A stretch of DNA of 63,266 nucleotides, counting the filler, from Rhabdomonas costata (Eukaryota), in the NCBI GenBank assembly GCA_019059605.1. It is 32 parts of 32 records of this genome, joined end to end, with 100 filler letters (N's around TTAATTAATTAA, not from the genome) between each part and the next. Parts side by side here need not be neighbours in the genome. Positions count along the whole stretch, not along the records: positions 1 to 1,884 come from JAHMHO010007807.1; 31 more parts are not named here. One strand, given 5' to 3'. Below the pieces are notes generated by a model. The model made no database searches and was not told the DNA's origin. It saw only the letters and a program-made list of their open reading frames with translations. Position 1 is the stretch's first letter. Each line of letters opens with the position of its first letter. A program made the position numbers and the translations under genes. Positions 1 to 53,843 of the stretch are shown in pieces.

Positions 1-297
1 TGTTGGTGGGATACAGAGGCATTTGGCCATAATGCTTTTGCTTTTGCGTGGAGTCCAGATGTGTGCCTGTACGCCAACACGCCGTGGAGCTTCATCGCTC
101 GCGTGCTGGCGAAAACATGTAGGGATAAATCTCGGCTGATGCTGGTGACTCCAGAGTGGCCAGATGCACCGTGGTACTCGACGCTGAAGGAGCTGACGGT
201 GCGAAGCCAGCGTTGGAATGTAAGGTTGTACCTTTATTCCACAGGACGTTTGAGGTCAAAGCCCAGCTGGGCTACGCTCTTTTCTTATGTGGTGTGA
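1..297 (+). CDS. C-terminal Dam-like (N6-adenine) DNA methyltransferase domain of a retrotransposon polyprotein, 5'-truncated
   Basis: Frame is open from base 1: NAFAFAWSPDVCLYANTPWSFIARVLAKTCRDKSRLMLVTPEWPDAPWYSTL. This fits the DAF..W....YANPPW.LI.RVL.K....LV.P.WP..PW pattern of retroelement (DIRS-type) MT domains. The catalytic NPPW reads NTPW here. Confidence 0.8.
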   Translation, partial: CWWDTEAFGHNAFAFAWSPDVCLYANTPWSFIARVLAKTCRDKSRLMLVTPEWPDAPWYSTLKELTVRSQRWNVRLYLYSTGRLRSKPSWATLFSYVV

Positions 298-640
298 AGA
301 GAGGTGGAAGGAGTGTAGTCAGTTGGTTTCCACATAGGTGGGTTAGGTGGGTTTTCCACAAGTGGGTAAGTGGGGTAGACGGTGTGAAATAGTTTAGGTA
401 GTACGATCCATGGACTTTTATTTTTTGTCTTTGTTGCTGCATTCTTTGTTTCCTATTTTCAGGTGCAAGGCAAAATTTCCAGAGCGGAGTACCATTTCCA
501 GACTCCAGACTCAGGTGTTGGGTGGAAGGTGGTGGAGTTTCTCTAGCTGTTTGTGGTTTCACTAGATGGTTGTGATTTCTCCCATTTAGTTAGTTGTTAC
601 AGAGTTCCTGATTTCAGAGTCCAGTGTTCTTGGATCTACA
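296..640 (+). mobile_element. Polypurine tract (296-313) followed by a putative LTR (314 to about 640)
   Basis: GAAGAGAGGTGGAAGGAG starts at the ORF stop and is followed directly by TGTAG (314). The matching inverted end CTACA is at 636-640; an alternative TTACA end is at 601. Confidence 0.6.
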
Positions 641-758
641 CTTCCAGAGTTTCATCCCTACTTTCAGAGCTTTGTGTGTGTGTGCGTCTGGAGGGGGGTT
701 TCCAGAACGTTTGCGGGTTGTGACTGACTTCAGAGCTACTGTGCTTCCAGAGTTGGAG

Positions 759-1884
759 ATGTCCAAGACAACTAAGTCCCCTGCAGAGAAGCGTTACTGG
801 GCAGGTATGAACGCGTTTGTGGGGGTCAATCTACAGAATCGGTATGAGGCTTGCGTGCAGTGCTTTGATAAGTCTTCCACAGATTTGGAGAATGTGCGAA
901 AAGAGACTGCAGAGAGACTGAATAGCAGATGTTCGGGAGTGGTAGAAAGTACCACGAGGTGGATGAATGCAGTGCAGTGGATTTCAGATCGGTACAAGGA
1001 CAGGAAAGAGAATGCAGAGATCACAAATCTAGTTGGTATTCTGGAGCAGGGAAGAGTTGAGATGGCTAAGGCTATGCAGGAGTTGAAAGAGTGGATGATG
1101 GTTTCCCAGGGATCTCCACAGTTACCGACCCTGAGTACCATTCCACCAGTGTGGGAGGATCATGCCATAATGTCGTATGTAATGGAGGTGGTTGAACAGA
1201 TTGATGGATCGGTTCTGATTTCAGAACGGGAGAATGTCAAGGGGTTGCTTAATGAGGTTCTGAGGAGGAAGCTTGTTTCCAGAGTATTGTCCCAGCTTCC
1301 AGAGACGAGGCAGTGGGTGAAGTATGTCCCTTGAGCCCCGAAGCCCCCTCCACAGCCACCAGTTGCATATACGTTGTGTGAGATTTTGCGGCAGCTGAAA
1401 ATGGGTATGGGACGGTTGGTGGAACCTCCCAGCGGAGGTAATGCACAGCAATGGACGGGAACTACAATGACAGGTGTGGCCAGAGCCACGCCCTCGACTT
1501 CTACAGAGAGAGCAGTGCCAAAGGCGGCTCCAAAGACAGTTCCAAAGTTGAGGCCAGCGTTGGTACAGCATTCGGTTACGGAAACCAAGAGGGAGCGTAG
1601 CGAGGTCCCTGGCGCAGTCTACAAGCATACTTGGACAGGGACTAGTTCCATACCGGCGGCTAAGTTTCCCAAGCCTAAACCAAGCCAGACGACCCCGATT
1701 GAATGGATTTCCACAGGCAACAGACCGTCACCCACATCCACATATGCTGGAGCTGTTCAGAAAATTGGTGAGAAGACTCGGACTGTAGTGGTTTGCGACC
1801 CTGCAGAGGTAAGTTGGGGTTGGGGAAGTGGTGGAAAGGAATCGATGCAGACGGATGGACCATGGTGGGGAGCCACCAAACCCC
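759..1884 (+). pseudogene. Putative gag-like ORF of the same retroelement, with one in-frame TGA (1332-1334), 3'-truncated
   Basis: ORFs 624..1334 and 1374..1884 are in the same frame and separated only by one TGA. It is intronless, with a helical N-terminus then a Pro/Thr-rich region, and lies just downstream of the putative LTR. No diagnostic gag motif seen. Confidence 0.45.
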
Positions 1885-2765: not shown

Positions 2766-3855
2766 CCACCTCGCCGCGGGCTCTCGCCACCTCGCCCGCT
2801 CGGGCACCCGCGCCTGTGCCCGAAGAATTCCTGCGTGCCACTGTGCTCGTGGTGGATGACGTGCCGATGAATCGCCGTGTGCTGGTGCTGAAGCTGCAGC
2901 AGCTGGGCATCACGGCGGTGGTGGAGGCGGGCACCGGGCTGGAGGCCTTGGACGCTGTACAGCAGGCGACGGGGGTGTTCAGTGCGATTCTAATGGATGT
3001 ATGCCTCGCGGTTTCGGTGCGATTGTTTGTGGTGGAGATGCAGCCGGAATGAGAGGCCGATTGCTCAGGTTTTCTGGTTTCCTGTAATGAGCAAGAGGGC
3101 ATCTACCAGGCTAGCACGACAGTCACTTTCGCTGTGGGAGCGGGAACATTCTTGCTCCTTGCCAGTAGCAATGCTCGATCAAGAAGGCATCATAGGACGG
3201 TTCGAGCTGTTGGTTGCCATTGACAGCGACAGAGTCATGCAGATTTTTGCGTAAGCATAGAATTTCTTCTTTCATGCGAATAATTGTTGACGATCCAGAG
3301 CTGCCAAAAAGCGAAGTCAGTAGTAGACAGAACTCGACCTTGGGCCGGTGAAGGCCGAAGGCCTTTTTCATGGTTGGCCTGGTTGGCCCATGGAGGCGGC
3401 TTCAAACATCCTCTCTTATAGTCGATTTAGCTTTTGCGGATATTTACGGCCTCGCCTCTACGGCTTGGTTGGGTTTCCACATATGCCTCGGCCATAGTCA
3501 AGGGCAGATGTGAAGAGCTTGCAACATTCTCCGTTGCGGATTGGTTTATGTATCCCCACCTGATTTCTTCAGAAACTGAGTGAAGTGAGATCGAAATGCA
3601 GGGGGGGGGGGCATCTTTTTGGCTCAGGTGATGATGCCTCAGCTTGACGGCATGGAGGCCACACGGCAGATCCGCCTGGACCCGCGGTACTCCTCCGTGC
3701 TGATCGTGGGTATTACCGGGGACTGCGGGGCGAGCACCCTGCAGCAGTGCGTGGAGGCCGGGATGACCGCGGCGATCGGCAAGCCCATCGACACCCCCGT
3801 GCTGCACGGGCTGCTGCGCGCTCACTTGGCACCCAAGCCAGAAGCCAAAGATATA
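2766..3855 (+). CDS. Response-regulator receiver domain (hybrid histidine kinase-type C-terminus); exons 2766-2998 and 3628 to about 3855
   Basis: VLVVDDVPMNRRVL...EAGTGLEAL...ILMD|VMMPQLDGMEATRQIR...IVGITG...CVEAGMTAAIGKP. A GT-AG intron (2999-3627) joins in frame right after the phospho-Asp. Confidence 0.93.
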
Positions 3856-5429: not shown

Positions 5430-5849
5430 TTGGAGGTAGAGTAGCATTGGAATGGCTACTGGCACGCAGGCTGCCCATTTCACCCCAAGTCACCCCTCAG
5501 AGTTTGGTGAAGCGAGGCGGTGAGGCAGAAGATCCCCCCACCACGACGAATTAGTCCCAGCAAGCGGCGGAGTCCGCAAGAGAAGAGCAAAGGTGCGCGA
5601 GCAAGCTTATTAAGGGGAAGGCGGTTTGGTCCCATTCCTGGTGTATCGGGTCGAAGCAAAGGCGGTCAAGTCCCAGGTGTTCCACATCCAGAGACAGAGA
5701 AGAAATGTCACATGCGTGAGATACAGACATTTTCCAGAGGTTTCCAGAGTGCCCTTTTGTCAAGGGTCAGCTGAGACAGAAGTCGAAGCTCAGCCCCTCG
5801 TGAGCCAGCTCCTGGCCAGGCCATGGGTCAGGCTATATATCAACCAGCT
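5430..5849 (-). mobile_element. Degenerate DIRS-like reverse transcriptase remnant
   Basis: Frameshifted pieces WLIYSLT..AR, LRLLSQL, KGTLE(T)S and DVEHLGL resemble the DIRS RT segment DDWLI...LL..LG...KS.LEP.Q..EHLG. Many stops. Confidence 0.35.
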
Positions 5850-8000: not shown

Positions 8001-9799
8001 CTACTGCAGGAAGCGCCTGGGTCTCGTACACTTTCCCTTTTCGCCACACTTTACAATCCTTCGCTTCCAGTCGACTTGCGGCTGAACCCGCGTTAAGAAC
8101 TGGTAGCCCAATACAACCGGAATGGACGTATTAATCACTCGTAAGTACAACTTCACAGTCATTTGTTCCAGGCTCCCTGTCACACGAACAAAGTGAGTAA
8201 CAGGCAACCCCTCTCCATTCGCTTCTCTCACTGTCAGCCTCTGCCGCAGTGGGTAGGTATGCAAAGGCAACTGATGGACCACGTCCTGACTAATGAAAGA
8301 GTCAGACGCACCGGAGTCCACCAACGCTCTCACATGCCTCATCCAAATCACAAGAGGTAAGAACAACAAAGGCTGCGGGCGGTGGGTCTGGGAGATTTTC
8401 CAAAAAACCGTCCACCACTTGCTCGGTTTTATGGAAAGGAAATACCGTACAAACAACGGCACCCAACCACTCACTTTCACATCTCGAATGATCACAGGTT
8501 GGGTTCTCTCACCACGCTGAAAATCTTCTTCATCAACTTCCAAAGGATCCGCTGGTTCAATGTCCCCAACAGCACTCCATTCGCACTCCACGGGCTCACT
8601 AAACCGCACTTCCCTCTGGCTCGTACTGTTGCTGGCTGAAACTACTGATTTCCTAGCCAGCTTGGCCTTCTAAACGAAAGCAACTGACAACAATGGATTC
8701 TTATCTCGATTCTCGTCTTGGAATACTGGCACTTGAGGCTTCTCCGCTTCAAAGAAGGTCTTCCGCAATCTTGCATGCGCTGCGACAACTCCGAACGCGC
8801 TTTTGACGGAACTGAATTCCCAAAAGTACCCTCAGCTGAAGAGGTACTCGCGAGCTCAGACTGCTTCTTGCCTGTCGCCTTGTGATCGGTTGGTAGAGCA
8901 CTCAGAAACGGGCCCGTGACCGGAAATAGAACGGCAACCTCTGCCTCACCCGCTGATGCGGCCGTCACGTACCGACCCAGCTCTTCGGACAACCTCTGGA
9001 GCAATCCTTACCGCTTCAACGCTCCTCGTTGCTGTCACACCTTGCAACAAAACCGGATGAACTACCTGCATTTGCAACGACGTTTACTGGTCCTCCAACT
9101 GCTCCTTTACACCAACGTCGCTGGAATTCCTGCGGCTTCCCTGTGGCACCGCTCTCTGCAATTCGCTACCTCCTGCAACACTTTGTGCAACCATCCCCAG
9201 ATTGCTTAAACTGCATCTTCTCAACATTCTGGGAATTCCAGCCTTCTGCTGACTCGTGGGCACATTGGATGGGGTGGGAGAGGCCCAGCCTCCAAACCTC
9301 TCTATTTTGGGCTCTCTGATCTTTTCGCAAACGTGGTTCCACCTTGGACAACTCCTGCTCTTCCAGACAACTCGGTATTTGCGAGCTCACAGTCTCCGTA
9401 GACGTGAGCACCACTCCCACAGTAGAAACATACGCTCGCTGGATGCTCTGGTGGCTTTGCCTCTTCTAAGCCTGATCGTGCAAACGTGATCTTTGCTGGC
9501 TGCTCCAGCATGCTAGCTGCCATACGTGGCTTCTCTGGTGATCCTCCACTCTGCACTAACAGTGGCGTGGGAATTCTCGGCCTGCCACCTCTCCCTGGAG
9601 AAGGAGACATCGCGTAACCAAAACATCTGCCACGTCCACCAAAGTTTCTGCCGCCTCCGCAACTTCCATCGCCTCTTCCTTGGAAGGACCTCCGATCTGG
9701 CGAAGGTGTCCTCGCGGCGTTCATATGCGACCGCGGTGGGGCAGTAAACATCACACTCCTCGCTGGAACTGTTTCTTCCAGAGTTGGTCCTGACGACAT
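8001..9799 (-). mobile_element. Ty3/gypsy LTR retrotransposon gag-protease fragment, degenerate
   Basis: CCHC zinc knuckle CFYCGSGAHVYGDC (about 9385-9430) and retropepsin VRALVDSGASDSFIS...VVLGYQFL...PQVDWK (about 8060-8375). Several stops and a frame change lie between them. Confidence 0.9.
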
Positions 9800-14194: not shown

Positions 14195-15758
14195 TTACGG
14201 GTCCACGAGGTCGAGGTGAGGAAAATTGGGAGAGCCCACGATTGTTTGCATTTCCACTGCTTCAAAAAGGTTGCCATGGATGCTCAGAGAAGTCAGCCTG
14301 GGAAAGCTAGCAGAATTCTTCAGCACTCGAATTCCGGGAACCCCGATCACGTTTTCAGAGACATCCAGGTAAGTGAGCCTGGAAAAGGACGAAGAGGTAG
14401 CGAGTGTTTGCAGCCCCTCATCCTCCAGCCGGTTGCCCCAAAGCTTCAATGAGATTAGCGTACAGAATTCGGAAAAGCCCACAAATTCTTGCATCCCCCG
14501 TGGTCCAATCTCATTGCTCGAAGCATCCAACCAAGTAAGGCTTAGGGGCCTTGCTGAACTTCTGAGCACCTGCATTCCTGCCGTCCCAATTCCATTGTGG
14601 GAGATGTCTAAATGGGTAAGTTTGGAAAATGCGCTCCACCCGACAAGCGCGATAAGGCCTTGAGTCCCAATCCGATTGCCCCACATTGTCAAAGAGGTGA
14701 GCTTGGGAAAGTTTGAAGATGCCGAAAGGGCTAGCGCTCCCTCAGGTGCCATGTGAACACAAGAGACATCGAGTGAAGTGAGTTGGGAAAAGTAAACGGA
14801 GGATGCGACCACGTGCATTCCAGAAGCCCCAATATCGTTCTCCGAAATGTCCAGGATGGTGAGGCTGGGAAGCACGGTTGAGCCCAAAAGAGACTGCGAG
14901 ATGTCACCGGCTTGGCAGCAGCAAAGGTTTAATGACTGGAGATTATCAAATTTTGCCCGCGCAAGGGCTTGTATTCCTAAGGGCCCCAGGTGAATACAGG
15001 ACGCGTCCAACGAGATGAGATTGGGAAAGTTCAAGGATTTCGCGAGGTGCTGCGTTACCCCCGGTCCGACCTCATTGAATCCAATATTCAAAGACAGCAG
15101 GTTCACTGCGAAGGTTGATGTTGCTAGGGCTCGCAATCCCAGATCATTGATTTTGTTTCCCTGCACATTCAAGGAGCTTAGCTTGGTGAAATTCGCAGAT
15201 GTGGCAAGAGATTGAAGACCCTCGTCTCCGACTCCGTTGCGGTGGACATCCAAGAACGTGAGGTTGGGAAAATTCCTCGACCCCGCCAGAACCCACAACC
15301 CCGTTGCCACCGAGTCTTAGGTACAACAGCCTGGCAAAGGTGGTGGAGGTCGCCAAGGCATTGATGCCCCCCGCTTGAATCCCGTTGGCGGTAAGATCTA
15401 GGCTCAGGACATTAGGACAGGATGGTGACGTGACCAAGGCAACAAGCCCGGTGTCACCTAGATTACATTGGCAAACTTTCAAGAAGGTAAGACTGGAAAA
15501 GCGACAGTGTGCAGTGCTCTCTGTAGTGCTAGACACAAGTAGAAGCTTAGCAGTGCCTGGGTCTCCGATCGAGACTGCCGTGAGCAGGCGCAACAGCCGT
15601 TCAGGAACACGTAGTGCTTCTTGTATCCCTGTCGAGACGGGAATCCGGAGGTTCAGCTTCCAACCTGGTGCAACATGGCCGTCAACAACGGCTCGAAACC
15701 GGTCGCACACCAAACGAAGCATCAGTTGGCGCTGCACCTTATGAAGCCAAAAAATGCA
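14195..15758 (-). pseudogene. Intronless F-box-like + RNI-type LRR protein (about 27-aa repeats) with an internal frameshift
   Basis: N-terminal LMLRLVCDRFRAVVD (F-box-like), then repeats of type FPNLTFLDVHRNGVGDEGLQSLATS. ORFs 15144..15737 and 14195..15310 switch frame at GGGG 15299-15302. Ends in TAA at 14195. Confidence 0.85.
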
Positions 15759-48049: not shown

Positions 48050-48735
48050 TCGGAAGTGGTAGAACCGGTATAGACGTTCAGCTTCGCTCCATGCAGGTAG
48101 TTTCGCCACTTCTCGGTAGCAGGGCGAGCAACTATTTTCAAGAACTGGGTAGTTCAACTTGTGCTTGGTTAATTGCCACTGTTGCAGGTGATCAGTCTGA
48201 TGTGCCATTAGTCGTCCTTCTGACAACGTGCCAGTGAGCAAGAATTGTGCACGTCAGCAAGTGATCTTTAATGTCGTCAAAAGCTTTCTGTTTGGTCGGC
48301 CCACAAGTCCAATTGGACTTTTTGTTGAGCATATCAGTCATGGCGGTTGCGACAGTGGCACGTAAGCTCCAAACTTGCTTCACTAAGCGGGGCGTCGGCC
48401 ATGCTGCAATGGTGTGCAGCTTTTTGGGAACCGGTCTGACCCCTTGCGTCCGACGATGAACCCGACGAACTCAATCTCTGGTTGGGCGAATGAGCACTTA
48501 TTCAGCTGTGCAAACAATTTCTGTTCACGCAATCGCAACAAACTCTGAGGACGTGCTGCATATGTTCTTTCAACGTTTCACTGATAACCAAAATGTAGTC
48601 CACGTACGTGCGCATCCAGGAAGTCTCTGTTGTGAATGCTGGAAGGTTTTTGTGGCATTGGTCAGACCAAATGACATGACTGTCCATTCAAACGGCCCAA
48701 ACTATGTATGTAAAGCAATCTTCTGACGGTCGCCC
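48050..48735 (-). mobile_element. Ty3/gypsy RT-RNase H remnant
   Basis: Frameshifted pieces DRQKIAL..FGPFEWTVMSFGLTNATKTFQ, YVDYILVISETLKEHMQHV, FAQPEIEFVGFIVG, IAAWPTP, QKAFDDIKDHL, LNYPVLE. Confidence 0.88.
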
Positions 48736-51370: not shown

Positions 51371-51494
51371 CACCCCCCACACACACCCACCACANNNNNN
51401 NNNNNNNNNNNNNNNNNNNNNNNNNNNNNNNNNNNNNNTTAATTAATTAANNNNNNNNNNNNNNNNNNNNNNNNNNNNNNNNNNNNNNNNNNNN

Positions 51495-53372
51495 GGTGGG
51501 AACAACGATGTTGCTTGCGAAGAAGTGAAGGACGCACAGGCCTCCTGGGAGACCCTCTGCAGCGGAGCACCAGTGAGCCATCTTCGCCCTCTCACGAAGG
51601 TAAGCCGCGGCAATTACAGAGGCAGGATGGCACAGCAGCACCGCTGGCGTGCGGAAGATCTCAAAAATGGCAGTCAGGTGATCCCGAAGTGCTGAGCCCT
51701 CCACCGCGGAATCGCTCACCACCGCCTCGCCAGAGGAATGTGAATCTCCGGATACCGAGCCGTGCGTGCCCGCGGTGAACCAAGCTGGGTGTCCAACCAG
51801 AAGCATCGGATGCATCACAGGGTCCACGATTTGGTCGATAGGGGCGAACAACGCAGCCCATTCCACATGTCCCTGCAGGTCCACCATCGGCGCAGCCTTC
51901 ACCAGATCCGAAGGTAACCATGCGGTGGGTAAGCGCTCCCCCATCGGCTGATTCATGTGCAAAGGGTAGGAATACTGCCAGTCTCCAAAATACCCAGGGA
52001 TGCTAAAGCCATGGAAGACCACACCGCAGCCCACAACAACTGGTTCCTGCCACCTCCTTGCGGCGTCGATGCAGCGCCCCGCCCCGCTGTACGGTAGGAT
52101 TTTCCGCCGCGTCGACACCAGCAAGCTGCATGAGCCCCCGCCCAGCATCACCACCCAGGGAATAAACTCCCATTGCATTCGGCGGTGCTGAATCCACAAC
52201 GCCGCCCAGTCGAAGCAATACCTCGTCTGAAGGAAACTACGCCGGGCGTGAAGCAGCAGGTGGTACGGATCCCCACATGCCGAGGACGGTTGCAGAAGAC
52301 GAAGGGATCGGTACCTGGCCTCCCACATCGGACTCGACAGAACAGAACAAAATGTGACCCGCGAGCACCGCAAAAGGGTCATCAGCTCCATATCCGCCAG
52401 AAAGCCCAAAATAACAGCAAAGCAGTCCAACGACACGGGCAGCGGTGGGCGGTGGGCCTTTCCTGCCTCCGTAACCATCGCCTCTCTCTGCGCTTGCACC
52501 ACACGCTGGTACAGCGTCACGAACTCCTCCCTTCTCCCCTCAACCATGGCTCGCTGGCTCTGCTCGTAAAGCTGACGGCATGCTTCATACTCTTCCGTGG
52601 AGCAAAACCAGTGCTTATCCATGTGGAACGAATGCACCCTCTGAAAAATAACCTCGGTGCGAAGGATGAACTTCGTGCCCTGCGTAACCGGAGTGCTCCC
52701 ATGCCAGACATCATGGTTGAAAACCAGTGCAGTGCCACAAATCGGGGTAATCACTCGAAAACCCAACATGTCCGAGAAGTGATAATACCGACTTCCAGCG
52801 CAGATTCCTCGGCTAGCCCAAAGCTCCGTTTCCCCACCGCAGAAGTCTTCGTTTAAGTATACCACAAGCGTAAACAATGAAGCCTGGTCCTCTCGAGGGA
52901 TCCACGGACCATCCCGATGAAGGGCGAAGTGGCCCTCTTCAGCGTACCTGACAACTTTGATGCATTCGTTCACCCCAAACGGAACCCAAACCCCACCATG
53001 GCCAAAGCAAAGAGGGATTCGCCCGCTATAGTCCTCTGGGCGCAGGTGCGGCGCCAAGCGGTCGAAAAGCTCTCGCGCAAGCCGAGGAGCTCGGATCAGC
53101 GCGCGGTCGCTTCGGCGCTCTGACGATGCGAAAAGTCGATCGACAGATTCCAAGTGCGGCGCAGACACCTTCAGGATGTGGGCGATTTCGCTCGAAGAAA
53201 GGAACTCATGAACCAAAAAGCATACATCTTGCTTCTCCCCGTCAGCCCGCGAGACAAGCGTAACATTCCTATCCAAGTCCACAAACTCTGCCTGTGACTC
53301 CGGGAGTGACCGAATTTCATTCATCACAGATTGGATATCTTGAATTACTCCGTCCGCCTGAGAGTCAACGGT
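51495..53372 (-). CDS. Intronless multidomain protein: 2OG-Fe(II) oxygenase + F-box-like + divergent actin-like domain; truncated at both contig ends
   Basis: The whole 1878-nt contig is one open frame. Oxygenase: RYAEEGHFALHRDG...TLVVYLNEDFCGGET...GTALVFNHDVWHGSTPVTQGTKFILRTEV. F-box: LPVSLDCFAVILGFLADMELMTLLRCSR...SPMWEARY. Actin-like: HPMLLV...LRDHLTAIFEIFRTPAVLL..ASVIAAAY. Confidence 0.85.
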
Positions 53373-53843
53373 NNNNNNNNNNNNNNNNNNNNNNNNNNNN
53401 NNNNNNNNNNNNNNNNTTAATTAATTAANNNNNNNNNNNNNNNNNNNNNNNNNNNNNNNNNNNNNNNNNNNNGGGGTGGTTGGTTTCCGCTCGGTAATTC
53501 ATGACCGACGGTTAGGCCAAGACCCATTGAATAATCAGATCCGAAGTTTGCCGAATTCGGAATTTTTTGAGATTTGGATTTCGATTTTGCCTCTGGGGGA
53601 AAACCCGCAAGAAAACAGCGAAAACTTTTCGAATTTATCTGTTTCCCTGCGCGTGTGAGTATCTGCTGAAGTGAAATCTACCTATCTTTGACAGATACCC
53701 ATTCACCTTTTTCGGATCTAACCTAACCTTTTTCGAGTAAGTTTCTGTTCTGCCCTTTTTTGTTTGTGTTGACCAGCTCTTGTTTTTTGAGCGGACCAGG
53801 TAACCGTCTTCGCCTTCGTGACACTGTGGTCCAGGTTGTGGAA

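What the first reader, a model, noticed from the sequence alone, without database searches (positions are those of the whole stretch)
1..640. Dam-like adenine methyltransferase at the end of an apparent LTR (not DIRS) retrotransposon
Seen: an MT-type domain (YANTPW...LVTPEWPDAPWY) ends at TGA 295-297, followed at once by an 18-nt purine tract and TGTAG...CTACA. Established: this MT domain is a regular part of DIRS1-type elements, where it follows RT-RNase H and is accompanied by a tyrosine recombinase; DIRS elements lack a PPT and TG...CA LTRs. Inference: this is an integrase-type LTR retrotransposon with a C-terminal N6-adenine methyltransferase that could methylate its own cDNA or its target. 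Gypsy remnants elsewhere in the window (8001-9799, 48050-48735) show the class is present, but no linkage to this contig is visible.
Basis: partly seen in the sequence, partly recalled or inferred. Interest (0 to 1): 0.8.

Follow-up and report, generated by a model that had tools for sequence, protein, structure and literature searches.

The report
Gypsy retrotransposon with methylase and nuclease
This is a decayed piece of a large Gypsy-type jumping gene whose integrase ends in an adenine-methylase-like domain, a design already described in a 2026 preprint, but the stretch first read as its terminal repeat is really a spacer leading into an extra gene that ends in a probable exonuclease domain.

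Summary
The Dam-like domain is real. Such DAM-LTR elements were described in a May 2026 preprint, and this scan has noted them on other DNA of this genome at least eight times. The stated anatomy is wrong. In 21 of 33 copies TGA 295-297 is GGA and the frame runs to TAG 316-318, so the 'PPT' is coding. CTACA at 636-640 occurs in 3 of 34 copies, and all 34 continue past 640. Positions 319-758 are an internal spacer before a ~1,400-codon extra ORF (ORF3, ATG 759). The true LTR (~1.3 kb, TGT...ACA, PPT before, PBS after, unrelated flanks at both ends) lies downstream of ORF3 on other contigs; the element is about 15 kb. ORF3's C-terminal domain has no Pfam match, but a full-length environmental relative (about 30% identical) folds confidently as a DEDDh nuclease. 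Its best matches include arenavirus NP exonuclease and Maelstrom (Z 8.5-9.3, near-tied with other DEDDh enzymes), and the acidic, His and Cys residues are conserved. My searches found no report of this pairing. No activity is shown. Verdict: new variant of a known kind.

The parts
1..318 (+). C-terminal ~105 codons of the Dam-like N6-adenine methyltransferase domain that ends pol; cut by the contig start; this copy has a premature stop at 295-297, while most copies run to TAG 316-318
   Evidence: upstream DLFAS motif and integrase in other copies
70..87 (+). Catalytic-pocket motif, YANTPW here and YANPPW in most copies and in environmental relatives
296..313 (+). Purine-rich stretch read as a PPT; in most copies it is the last codons of the MT frame
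319..758 (+). Internal non-coding spacer between pol-MT and ORF3; not an LTR
415..464 (+). Pyrimidine tract and TCAG|GT, splice-acceptor-like; a possible acceptor for an ORF3 message (inference)
   Evidence: TCAGGT at 459-464 in 26 of 39 copies
759..1884 (+). 5' part of ORF3, a ~1,400-codon extra ORF whose C-terminal domain (on other contigs) is DEDDh/Maelstrom-like; this copy has a stop at 1332-1334 and is cut by the contig end

Best explanation
Window 1-1884 is an internal, decayed fragment of a ~15-kb Ty3/Gypsy LTR retrotransposon. Shown order: 5' LTR (~1.3 kb) - PBS - gag (Ty3 capsid, CCHC knuckle) - protease - RT - RNase H - HHCC/DDE integrase - GPY/F SH3 - acidic linker - Dam-like MT - 440-nt spacer - ORF3 (~1,400 aa, C-terminal DEDDh-fold domain) - ~480-nt 3' UTR - PPT - 3' LTR. 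Inferred from established Ty3/Gypsy biology: tRNA-primed reverse transcription in a particle, then DDE integration. Inferred following the DAM-LTR preprint (about 50%): the MT travels as the tail of integrase with the new cDNA and adds 6mA to it, seeding an active chromatin state after insertion. Inferred (about 60%): ORF3 is made from a separate, probably spliced message. Fold-level evidence (about 85%) says its last domain is a DEDDh 3'-5' exonuclease-like fold with Maelstrom/arenavirus-type His/Cys residues; a role in trimming RNA or blunting small-RNA silencing is a guess (about 25%). The confidence given is for the architecture.
For: Overlap chain of real contigs: LTR-PBS-gag (L250, L244), gag-PR-RT (L183, L165), RT-RH-INT-SH3 (L196, L113), SH3-linker-MT in one frame (L063, L023, L002), MT-spacer-ORF3, ORF3 as one frame over 9 overlapping stop-free segments, ORF3-UTR-PPT-LTR. 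Pfam: Ty3_capsid 8e-7, aspartyl protease 5e-8, RVT_1 6e-34, RT_RNaseH 4e-15, Integrase_H2C2 3e-9, SH3_Tf2-1 4e-13. LTR ends: of 30 5' ends with flank, 18 follow the PPT and 5 are clean starts after unrelated DNA; of 27 3' ends, 14 precede the PBS and 9 are clean ends before unrelated DNA. P0002 (875 aa, 60% identical over the MT) holds INT, SH3 and MT in one protein. ORF3 domain: 26 hits among 1.84 billion representatives, 4 of them set aside as off-target long proteins; 118 profile hits; relative P0019 folds at pLDDT 83; VIA-align Z 9.3 (rmsd 4.2, 162 aligned) Lassa NP, 8.9 and 8.5 Maelstrom, with all 9 rows at Z 8 or more being DEDD-type; D3 10/11, E5 11/13, E65 46/48, H117 80/87, E159 83/94, H211 34/37, H226 29/31, C227 29/31, E231 28/32 conserved.
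Against: No contig holds a whole element (longest family contigs are 4-5 kb), so the map is a tiling of different copies and short-read chimeras cannot be excluded. No stop-free path was found for gag-to-knuckle, knuckle-to-protease, RT-to-integrase or integrase-to-SH3 among the copies held. No TSD was seen (one solo-like LTR, L229, has flanks alike in 3 of 5 bases). The MT has only weak profile hits and its model failed (pLDDT 44). Shared variants show no purifying-selection signal in the MT (p 0.75-1); only 1 of 10 tests, on the DEDDh region, was significant (p 7e-6), and a second reference for that region gave p 0.2. The fold was predicted for a 26-30% identical relative, not for the element's own protein; Foldseek against PDB gave nothing at E 0.001 or better; the top Z-scores are tied. 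The preprint's E. coli assay found no added 6mA. At least 14 copies share an out-of-frame ORF3 deletion, so ORF3 is dispensable in cis.
Confidence: 0.87

Rival explanations
1. One reading: the MT ends at 297, 296-313 is the PPT and 314-640 is a short TG...CA 3' LTR.
For: The letters are present in this copy; several contigs begin near 312-336.
Against: TGA in 3 of 33 copies and CTACA in 3 of 34; all 34 continue past 640; no copy with flank shows unrelated DNA at 314; the starts near 312-336 are contig ends. A different 1.3-kb repeat has PPT, PBS and unrelated flanks.
Confidence: 0.02
2. The MT belongs to a DIRS/Ngaro tyrosine-recombinase element, and the ORF after it is the recombinase.
For: MT at the end of pol followed by another ORF recalls DIRS order (recalled); the preprint derives LTR DAMs from DIRS.
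Against: DDE integrase and SH3 directly precede the MT; no ORF3 segment hits a recombinase family; the genome's 2 PF00589 matches (of 7 candidates) share no DNA with family loci; the termini are direct TG...CA repeats with PBS and PPT.
Confidence: 0.02
3. ORF3 is a separate element, or an assembly chimera, that only looks like part of the DAM-LTR.
For: Fragmented assembly with many rearranged contigs (L005, L009, L059, L060); one environmental MT contig (L271) shows no obvious ORF3 behind a degenerate MT; no environmental contig linking MT and the DEDDh domain could be fetched.
Against: The MT-spacer-ORF3 junction and the 3'UTR-PPT-LTR junction are the same in all informative copies, and no separate terminus shows at either side of ORF3.
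Confidence: 0.07
4. The architecture is right, but the MT tail is a non-catalytic nucleic-acid or SAM-binding module carried over from DIRS ancestors and does not mark the element's DNA.
For: The preprint reports no 6mA gain in Dam-deficient E. coli and a truncated domain; no methylation data here.
Against: DLFAS and NPPW motifs are kept here and in relatives at 51-60% identity; the preprint reports 6mA enrichment on DAM-LTR insertions in three species.
Confidence: 0.4

Closest known systems
DAM-LTR retrotransposons (Fernandez-Moreno et al., bioRxiv 10.64898/2026.05.21.726589; whole main text read, supplementary figures not seen)
   Same: Ty3/Gypsy pol with a DIRS-type Dam domain keeping the NPP triplet; chromodomain-less forms are described for ichthyosporeans.
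   Different: Its main text has no mention of exonuclease, DEDD, ORF3 or Maelstrom. Here there is no chromodomain or DNMT hit, and a ~1,400-codon ORF3 follows the MT. Which of its five lineages this family joins was not testable.
DIRS1-type tyrosine-recombinase retrotransposons
   Same: Dam-like MT at the end of the RT-RNase H frame (the preprint's stated source of the domain).
   Different: DDE integrase, direct TG...CA LTRs, PBS and PPT; no recombinase found.
Bdelloid Juno and Vesta LTR elements with DEDDy ORF3 (PMC5408684; passages read)
   Same: An extra ORF after pol encoding a DEDD-superfamily exonuclease (DEDD changed to DEED; a Cys-His-Cys motif noted in some).
   Different: Those are RNase D-like DEDDy ORFs in elements for which that text never mentions a methyltransferase. 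Here the domain is DEDDh-type (H-C-x-x-x-E), ends a very long ORF and sits behind a Dam domain.
Maelstrom domain and arenavirus nucleoprotein exonuclease (PMC2628886 abstract and first part of Results; PMC7968707 passages and one section)
   Same: Among the best structural matches (Z 8.5-9.3); conserved Glu/His/His/Cys residues besides the acidic set, as in protist Maelstrom domains that keep both sets.
   Different: Only 6-17% identity, no Pfam hit, and scores tied with DinG, TREX-like and RNase T exonucleases; two of the expected Asp positions appear to be Glu.

Membership tests
Ty3/Gypsy LTR retrotransposon | Domain order PR-RT-RH-IN | tested here: met
   (tiled over contigs)
Ty3/Gypsy LTR retrotransposon | HHCC/DDE integrase with GPY/F SH3 tail | tested here: met
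   L113, L085, L071, L063, P0002
Ty3/Gypsy LTR retrotransposon | Direct TG...CA LTRs at both ends | tested here: met
   1.3-kb repeat whose ends split between element-internal and unrelated flanks; it is not 314-640
Ty3/Gypsy LTR retrotransposon | PBS after 5' LTR and PPT before 3' LTR | tested here: met
   PBS motif 2 nt after 14 of 27 LTR ends; short purine-rich motif before 18 of 30 starts
Ty3/Gypsy LTR retrotransposon | PBS complementary to a host tRNA | tested here: inconclusive
   Likeness to initiator tRNA-Met is recalled; a pattern search gave 37 places, and no tRNA gene was found in the 8 and 16 loci scanned
Ty3/Gypsy LTR retrotransposon | 4-6 bp target-site duplication | tested here: inconclusive
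   No whole element on one contig; one solo-like LTR with imperfect flanks
Ty3/Gypsy LTR retrotransposon | RT groups with Ty3/Gypsy in a tree | not tested
   No reference RT set was at hand
DAM-LTR (2026 preprint) | Dam-like domain with NPP triplet inside an LTR-type pol | tested here: met
   Pfam Dam hits are below cut-off (E 0.02; 0.004 for P0004)
DAM-LTR (2026 preprint) | Falls in the eukaryotic DAM clade or one of its five lineages | not testable with these tools
DAM-LTR (2026 preprint) | AMT1 in the host and 6mA on insertions | not tested
   No answered search for MT-A70 and no read data
EpiLTR / DAM-chromovirus | Chromodomain and cytosine DNMT in pol | tested here: not met
   No Chromo or DNA_methylase hit in the tiled segments or in P0002-P0004
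DIRS-like elements | Tyrosine recombinase, no DDE integrase, split or inverted repeats | tested here: not met
DEDDh exonuclease (ORF3 C-terminal domain) | DnaQ-like fold | tested here: met
   On relative P0019: pLDDT 83; 9 of 9 rows at Z 8 or more are DEDD-type; homology to the element's domain E 5.5e-7 in 1.84 billion and pairwise 2e-17
DEDDh exonuclease (ORF3 C-terminal domain) | D-E-D-H-D catalytic set | tested here: inconclusive
   Conserved D, E, E, H, E; roles assigned from sequence pattern, not from superposition; IDMEF in 12 of 14 and HCAVVE in 3 of 4 true genome matches
Maelstrom domain | EHHCHC / ECHC set and closest structural kinship | tested here: inconclusive
   E65, H117, H211 and C227 conserved; Z tied with other DEDDh enzymes; no Pfam hit

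The most novel reading that the evidence does not exclude
A ~15-kb Gypsy lineage carries a two-part counter-silencing kit: an integrase-tethered adenine methylase that marks new cDNA as active chromatin, and a separately expressed ORF3 ending in a Maelstrom/arenavirus-NP-like exonuclease that destroys double-stranded or small RNAs aimed at the element.
Probability: 0.2. Interest if true: 0.75.

Novelty: new variant of a known kind. Interest (0 to 1): 0.45.

Why it matters
The methylase-bearing Gypsy design is already described, so this copy adds one more example of it. What it adds beyond that is the whole anatomy and an unannotated accessory gene: a nuclease-fold family with more than 100 unnamed environmental members is tied here to a DAM-LTR element. 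If both domains are active, one retrotransposon would act on DNA marking and on RNA turnover. That gives a testable model of how such elements handle host silencing and a mobile-element relative of the Maelstrom/arenavirus exonuclease branch.

Tried and rejected
LTR at 314-640: rejected. My first alternative, a circular or purely tandem unit without termini, was dropped once the real LTR ends appeared. The ORF at 759 as gag: rejected; gag with Ty3 capsid and CCHC follows the PBS. MT structure model failed (7 sequences, pLDDT 44) and was not used for a fold search. PDB sequence searches for the MT and the ORF3 domain gave no hit better than E 0.19. ESM Atlas gave no usable hit for the element's domain and only 0.81-0.83 unnamed clusters for P0019. 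Foldseek PDB gave none at E 0.001 or better, though top rows were RNase T, QIP, PolC exonuclease and Lassa NP; BFVD gave one unnamed hit at 1e-3. No longer proteins with the ORF3 domain (weak negative). No relatives of either domain in viral contigs. ORF3's N-terminal and middle parts have no Pfam hit above cut-off and no PHROG hit. The within-genome selection test was mostly uninformative, and its gag row used a wrong frame and is discarded. No cognate tRNA gene found. No Rfam match in the window, L194 or L244. Host lineage was not determined. Literature searches for the MT-plus-nuclease pairing returned no such report within the open-access library searched.

Full report
Setting. The window is a string of ~1.9-kb contigs from a fragmented eukaryotic assembly (97 Mb, 104,289 contigs); 1-1884 is one contig. 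All evidence on the element comes from other copies in that genome (294 non-redundant loci; each search scored only its 40 best candidates) and from environmental proteins. The host lineage was not determined.

Observation. The letters are as reported and the region is a high-copy repeat. The fragment is the C-terminal two thirds of a Dam-like domain. Other copies add the upstream DLFAS motif (11 of 15 matches) and mostly read NPPW (9 of 15) where the window has NTPW. A fuller copy, L002, hits PHROG 111 DNA methyltransferase at E 3e-4 and Pfam Dam at E 0.02. These hits are weak, and an AlphaFold model failed, so the MT call rests on motifs, the PHROG hit and the relatives below.

The proposed PPT and LTR fail. 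Codon 295-297 is TGA in 3 of 33 copies and GGA in 21; 28 of 33 have the in-frame stop at 316-318, so the purine tract is coding and TGTAG is the last codon plus stop. CTACA at 636-640 is seen in 3 of 34 copies, and all 34 stay aligned beyond 640. Of 32 copies with at least 79 nt upstream of 314, 31 run into the MT and one joins earlier MT sequence. A search with 300-660 alone showed no shared boundary (40 of 148 candidates scored).

Upstream. Overlapping contigs give gag (Ty3_capsid 8e-7) with a CCHC knuckle, protease, RT (6e-34), RNase H, an HHCC/DDE integrase and a Tf2-like SH3. SH3, a long acidic linker and the MT form one reading frame across L063, L023 and L002. Stop-free paths for gag-knuckle, knuckle-protease, RT-integrase and integrase-SH3 were not found among these decayed copies. 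Three environmental proteins close the last gap: P0002 (875 aa, 60% identical over the MT) and P0003 hold integrase, SH3 and MT in one chain, and P0004 holds SH3 and MT; contig L270 shows SH3, linker and MT with one stop between. No chromodomain, DNMT or tyrosine recombinase was hit. The genome's 2 recombinase matches share no DNA with family loci.

Downstream. After a 440-nt spacer, an ORF starts at ATG 759. Nine overlapping stop-free segments from different copies tile it as one frame of about 1,400 codons (length is my arithmetic from the offsets). It is followed by ~480 nt of UTR, a short purine-rich motif and a 1,306-nt repeat, TGTAACGG...GTGTGACA (L194). This is the LTR. Of 30 5' ends with flank, 18 follow the PPT motif, 5 are clean starts after unrelated DNA, and 7 are degenerate, offset or LTR-LTR joins. 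Of 27 3' ends, 14 precede the PBS, 9 are clean ends before unrelated DNA, and 4 are degenerate or rearranged. The PBS leads into gag. Summed offsets give about 15 kb. The PBS resembles an initiator tRNA-Met end (recalled); no such tRNA gene was found, and TSDs could not be shown.

ORF3. No part has a Pfam hit above cut-off. Its last ~290 residues found 26 representatives, 4 of which were long off-target proteins and were dropped (3 shown to be NHL-repeat proteins), and then 118 unnamed, mostly fragmentary environmental proteins. No single genomic copy among those held covers the whole domain without a break, so I folded the full-length relative P0019 (26-30% identical) with a 111-row alignment: pLDDT 83, pTM 0.85. 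VIA-align against 48,161 chains gave Lassa NP (Z 9.3, rmsd 4.2, 162 aligned), DinG exonuclease 9.0, TREX-like 8.9, Maelstrom 8.9 and 8.5, LCMV NP 8.7 and RNase T 8.4. These are tied and only a little above the tool's stated background of 7-8, but all nine rows at Z 8 or more are DEDD-type, and Foldseek's sub-threshold top rows agree. D3, E5, E65, H117, E159, H211, H226, C227 and E231 are conserved, which fits a DEDDh site plus the Glu/His/Cys set of Maelstrom domains (PMC2628886; PMC7968707). Activity is not shown. An earlier scan note (e1-7217852) judged that nothing showed an ORF of this description in this genome to be a DEDD nuclease; the fold result here argues otherwise, though I could not confirm it is the same family.

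State of the family. Copies are 90-95% identical to a reference copy and carry many stops; shared variants show no selection signal except in one of two tests on the DEDDh region. CpG transitions run at about twice the rate of other C/G transitions, which fits, but does not prove, host cytosine methylation. The window copy has stops in both the MT and ORF3.

Mechanism. Shown: the anatomy. From established biology: tRNA-primed reverse transcription and DDE integration. Inferred: the MT is delivered with integrase to new cDNA and may add 6mA; the preprint reports 6mA enrichment on DAM-LTR insertions but no activity in E. coli. Inferred: ORF3 is expressed from a spliced message, given the acceptor-like TCAG|GT at 459-464 in 26 of 39 copies. 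Speculative: ORF3 trims element RNA or counters small-RNA silencing. At least 14 copies share an out-of-frame ORF3 deletion, so it is not needed in cis.

Comparison and verdict. DAM-LTRs are described in bioRxiv 10.64898/2026.05.21.726589 (whole main text read; supplementary figures not seen and may show domain maps that bear on ORF3). This scan has already noted the design in this genome (8 of 33 matching notes shown). DEDDy ORF3s are known from bdelloid LTR elements (PMC5408684, passages). PMC5890265 was seen only as a listing. The preprint text has no mention of exonuclease, DEDD, ORF3 or Maelstrom, and searches showed no report of the pairing. The finding as given is known and partly misread; the MT-plus-DEDDh-ORF3 element is a new variant. 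Interest 0.45.

Noticed in passing
window 1551 junction; L034, L051, L102, L104, L111, L112, L115, L117, L138, L142, L155, L161, L208, L232: Fourteen copies share one deletion of roughly 2.5 kb that joins the start of ORF3 to just before the nuclease-like domain, out of frame; a defective subfamily that was amplified.
   Followed up: partly
L194:2468-3790, L305, L320: Single contigs read PPT-LTR-PBS, and L005, L009 and L059 join ORF3 to pol pieces: either real head-to-tail tandem arrays or collapsed assembly.
   Followed up: partly
window 415-464: Pyrimidine tract and conserved TCAG|GT in the spacer, a candidate splice or trans-splice acceptor for ORF3.
   Followed up: partly
L230:12-299: A second, more distant Dam-like sequence (40% identical to this MT) lies in the flank beyond an LTR, pointing to another MT-bearing family in the genome.
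   Followed up: no
window 8031-8336 and 48458-48725: Protease and RT remnants of other Gypsy families (70% and about 40% aa identity to this one).
   Followed up: partly
window 5672-5849: Contig end resembling the start of this family's LTR at 73-82% identity, probably a sister family; 5039-5674 matches the flank of L249.
   Followed up: no
L312, L317, L320, L313, L316: A sister LTR family (~72% identical) and apparently unrelated LTR ends use the same PBS motif.
   Followed up: no
L085 (after the SH3 and start of the linker): An integrase copy leaves the family before the MT and continues in unrelated sequence: a truncation or an MT-less variant.
   Followed up: no
L148 N-terminal part; L274: ORF3 also has a Cys/His stretch (CEVC...DH) before the nuclease domain and a ~400-residue middle domain without any family hit.
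   Followed up: no
window 2820-3000, 14195-15316, 51447-53420: Host-like ORFs seen in the ORF list: a response-regulator-like receiver exon, a leucine-rich-repeat protein and a long single-exon oxygenase-like ORF (labels from recall).
   Followed up: no
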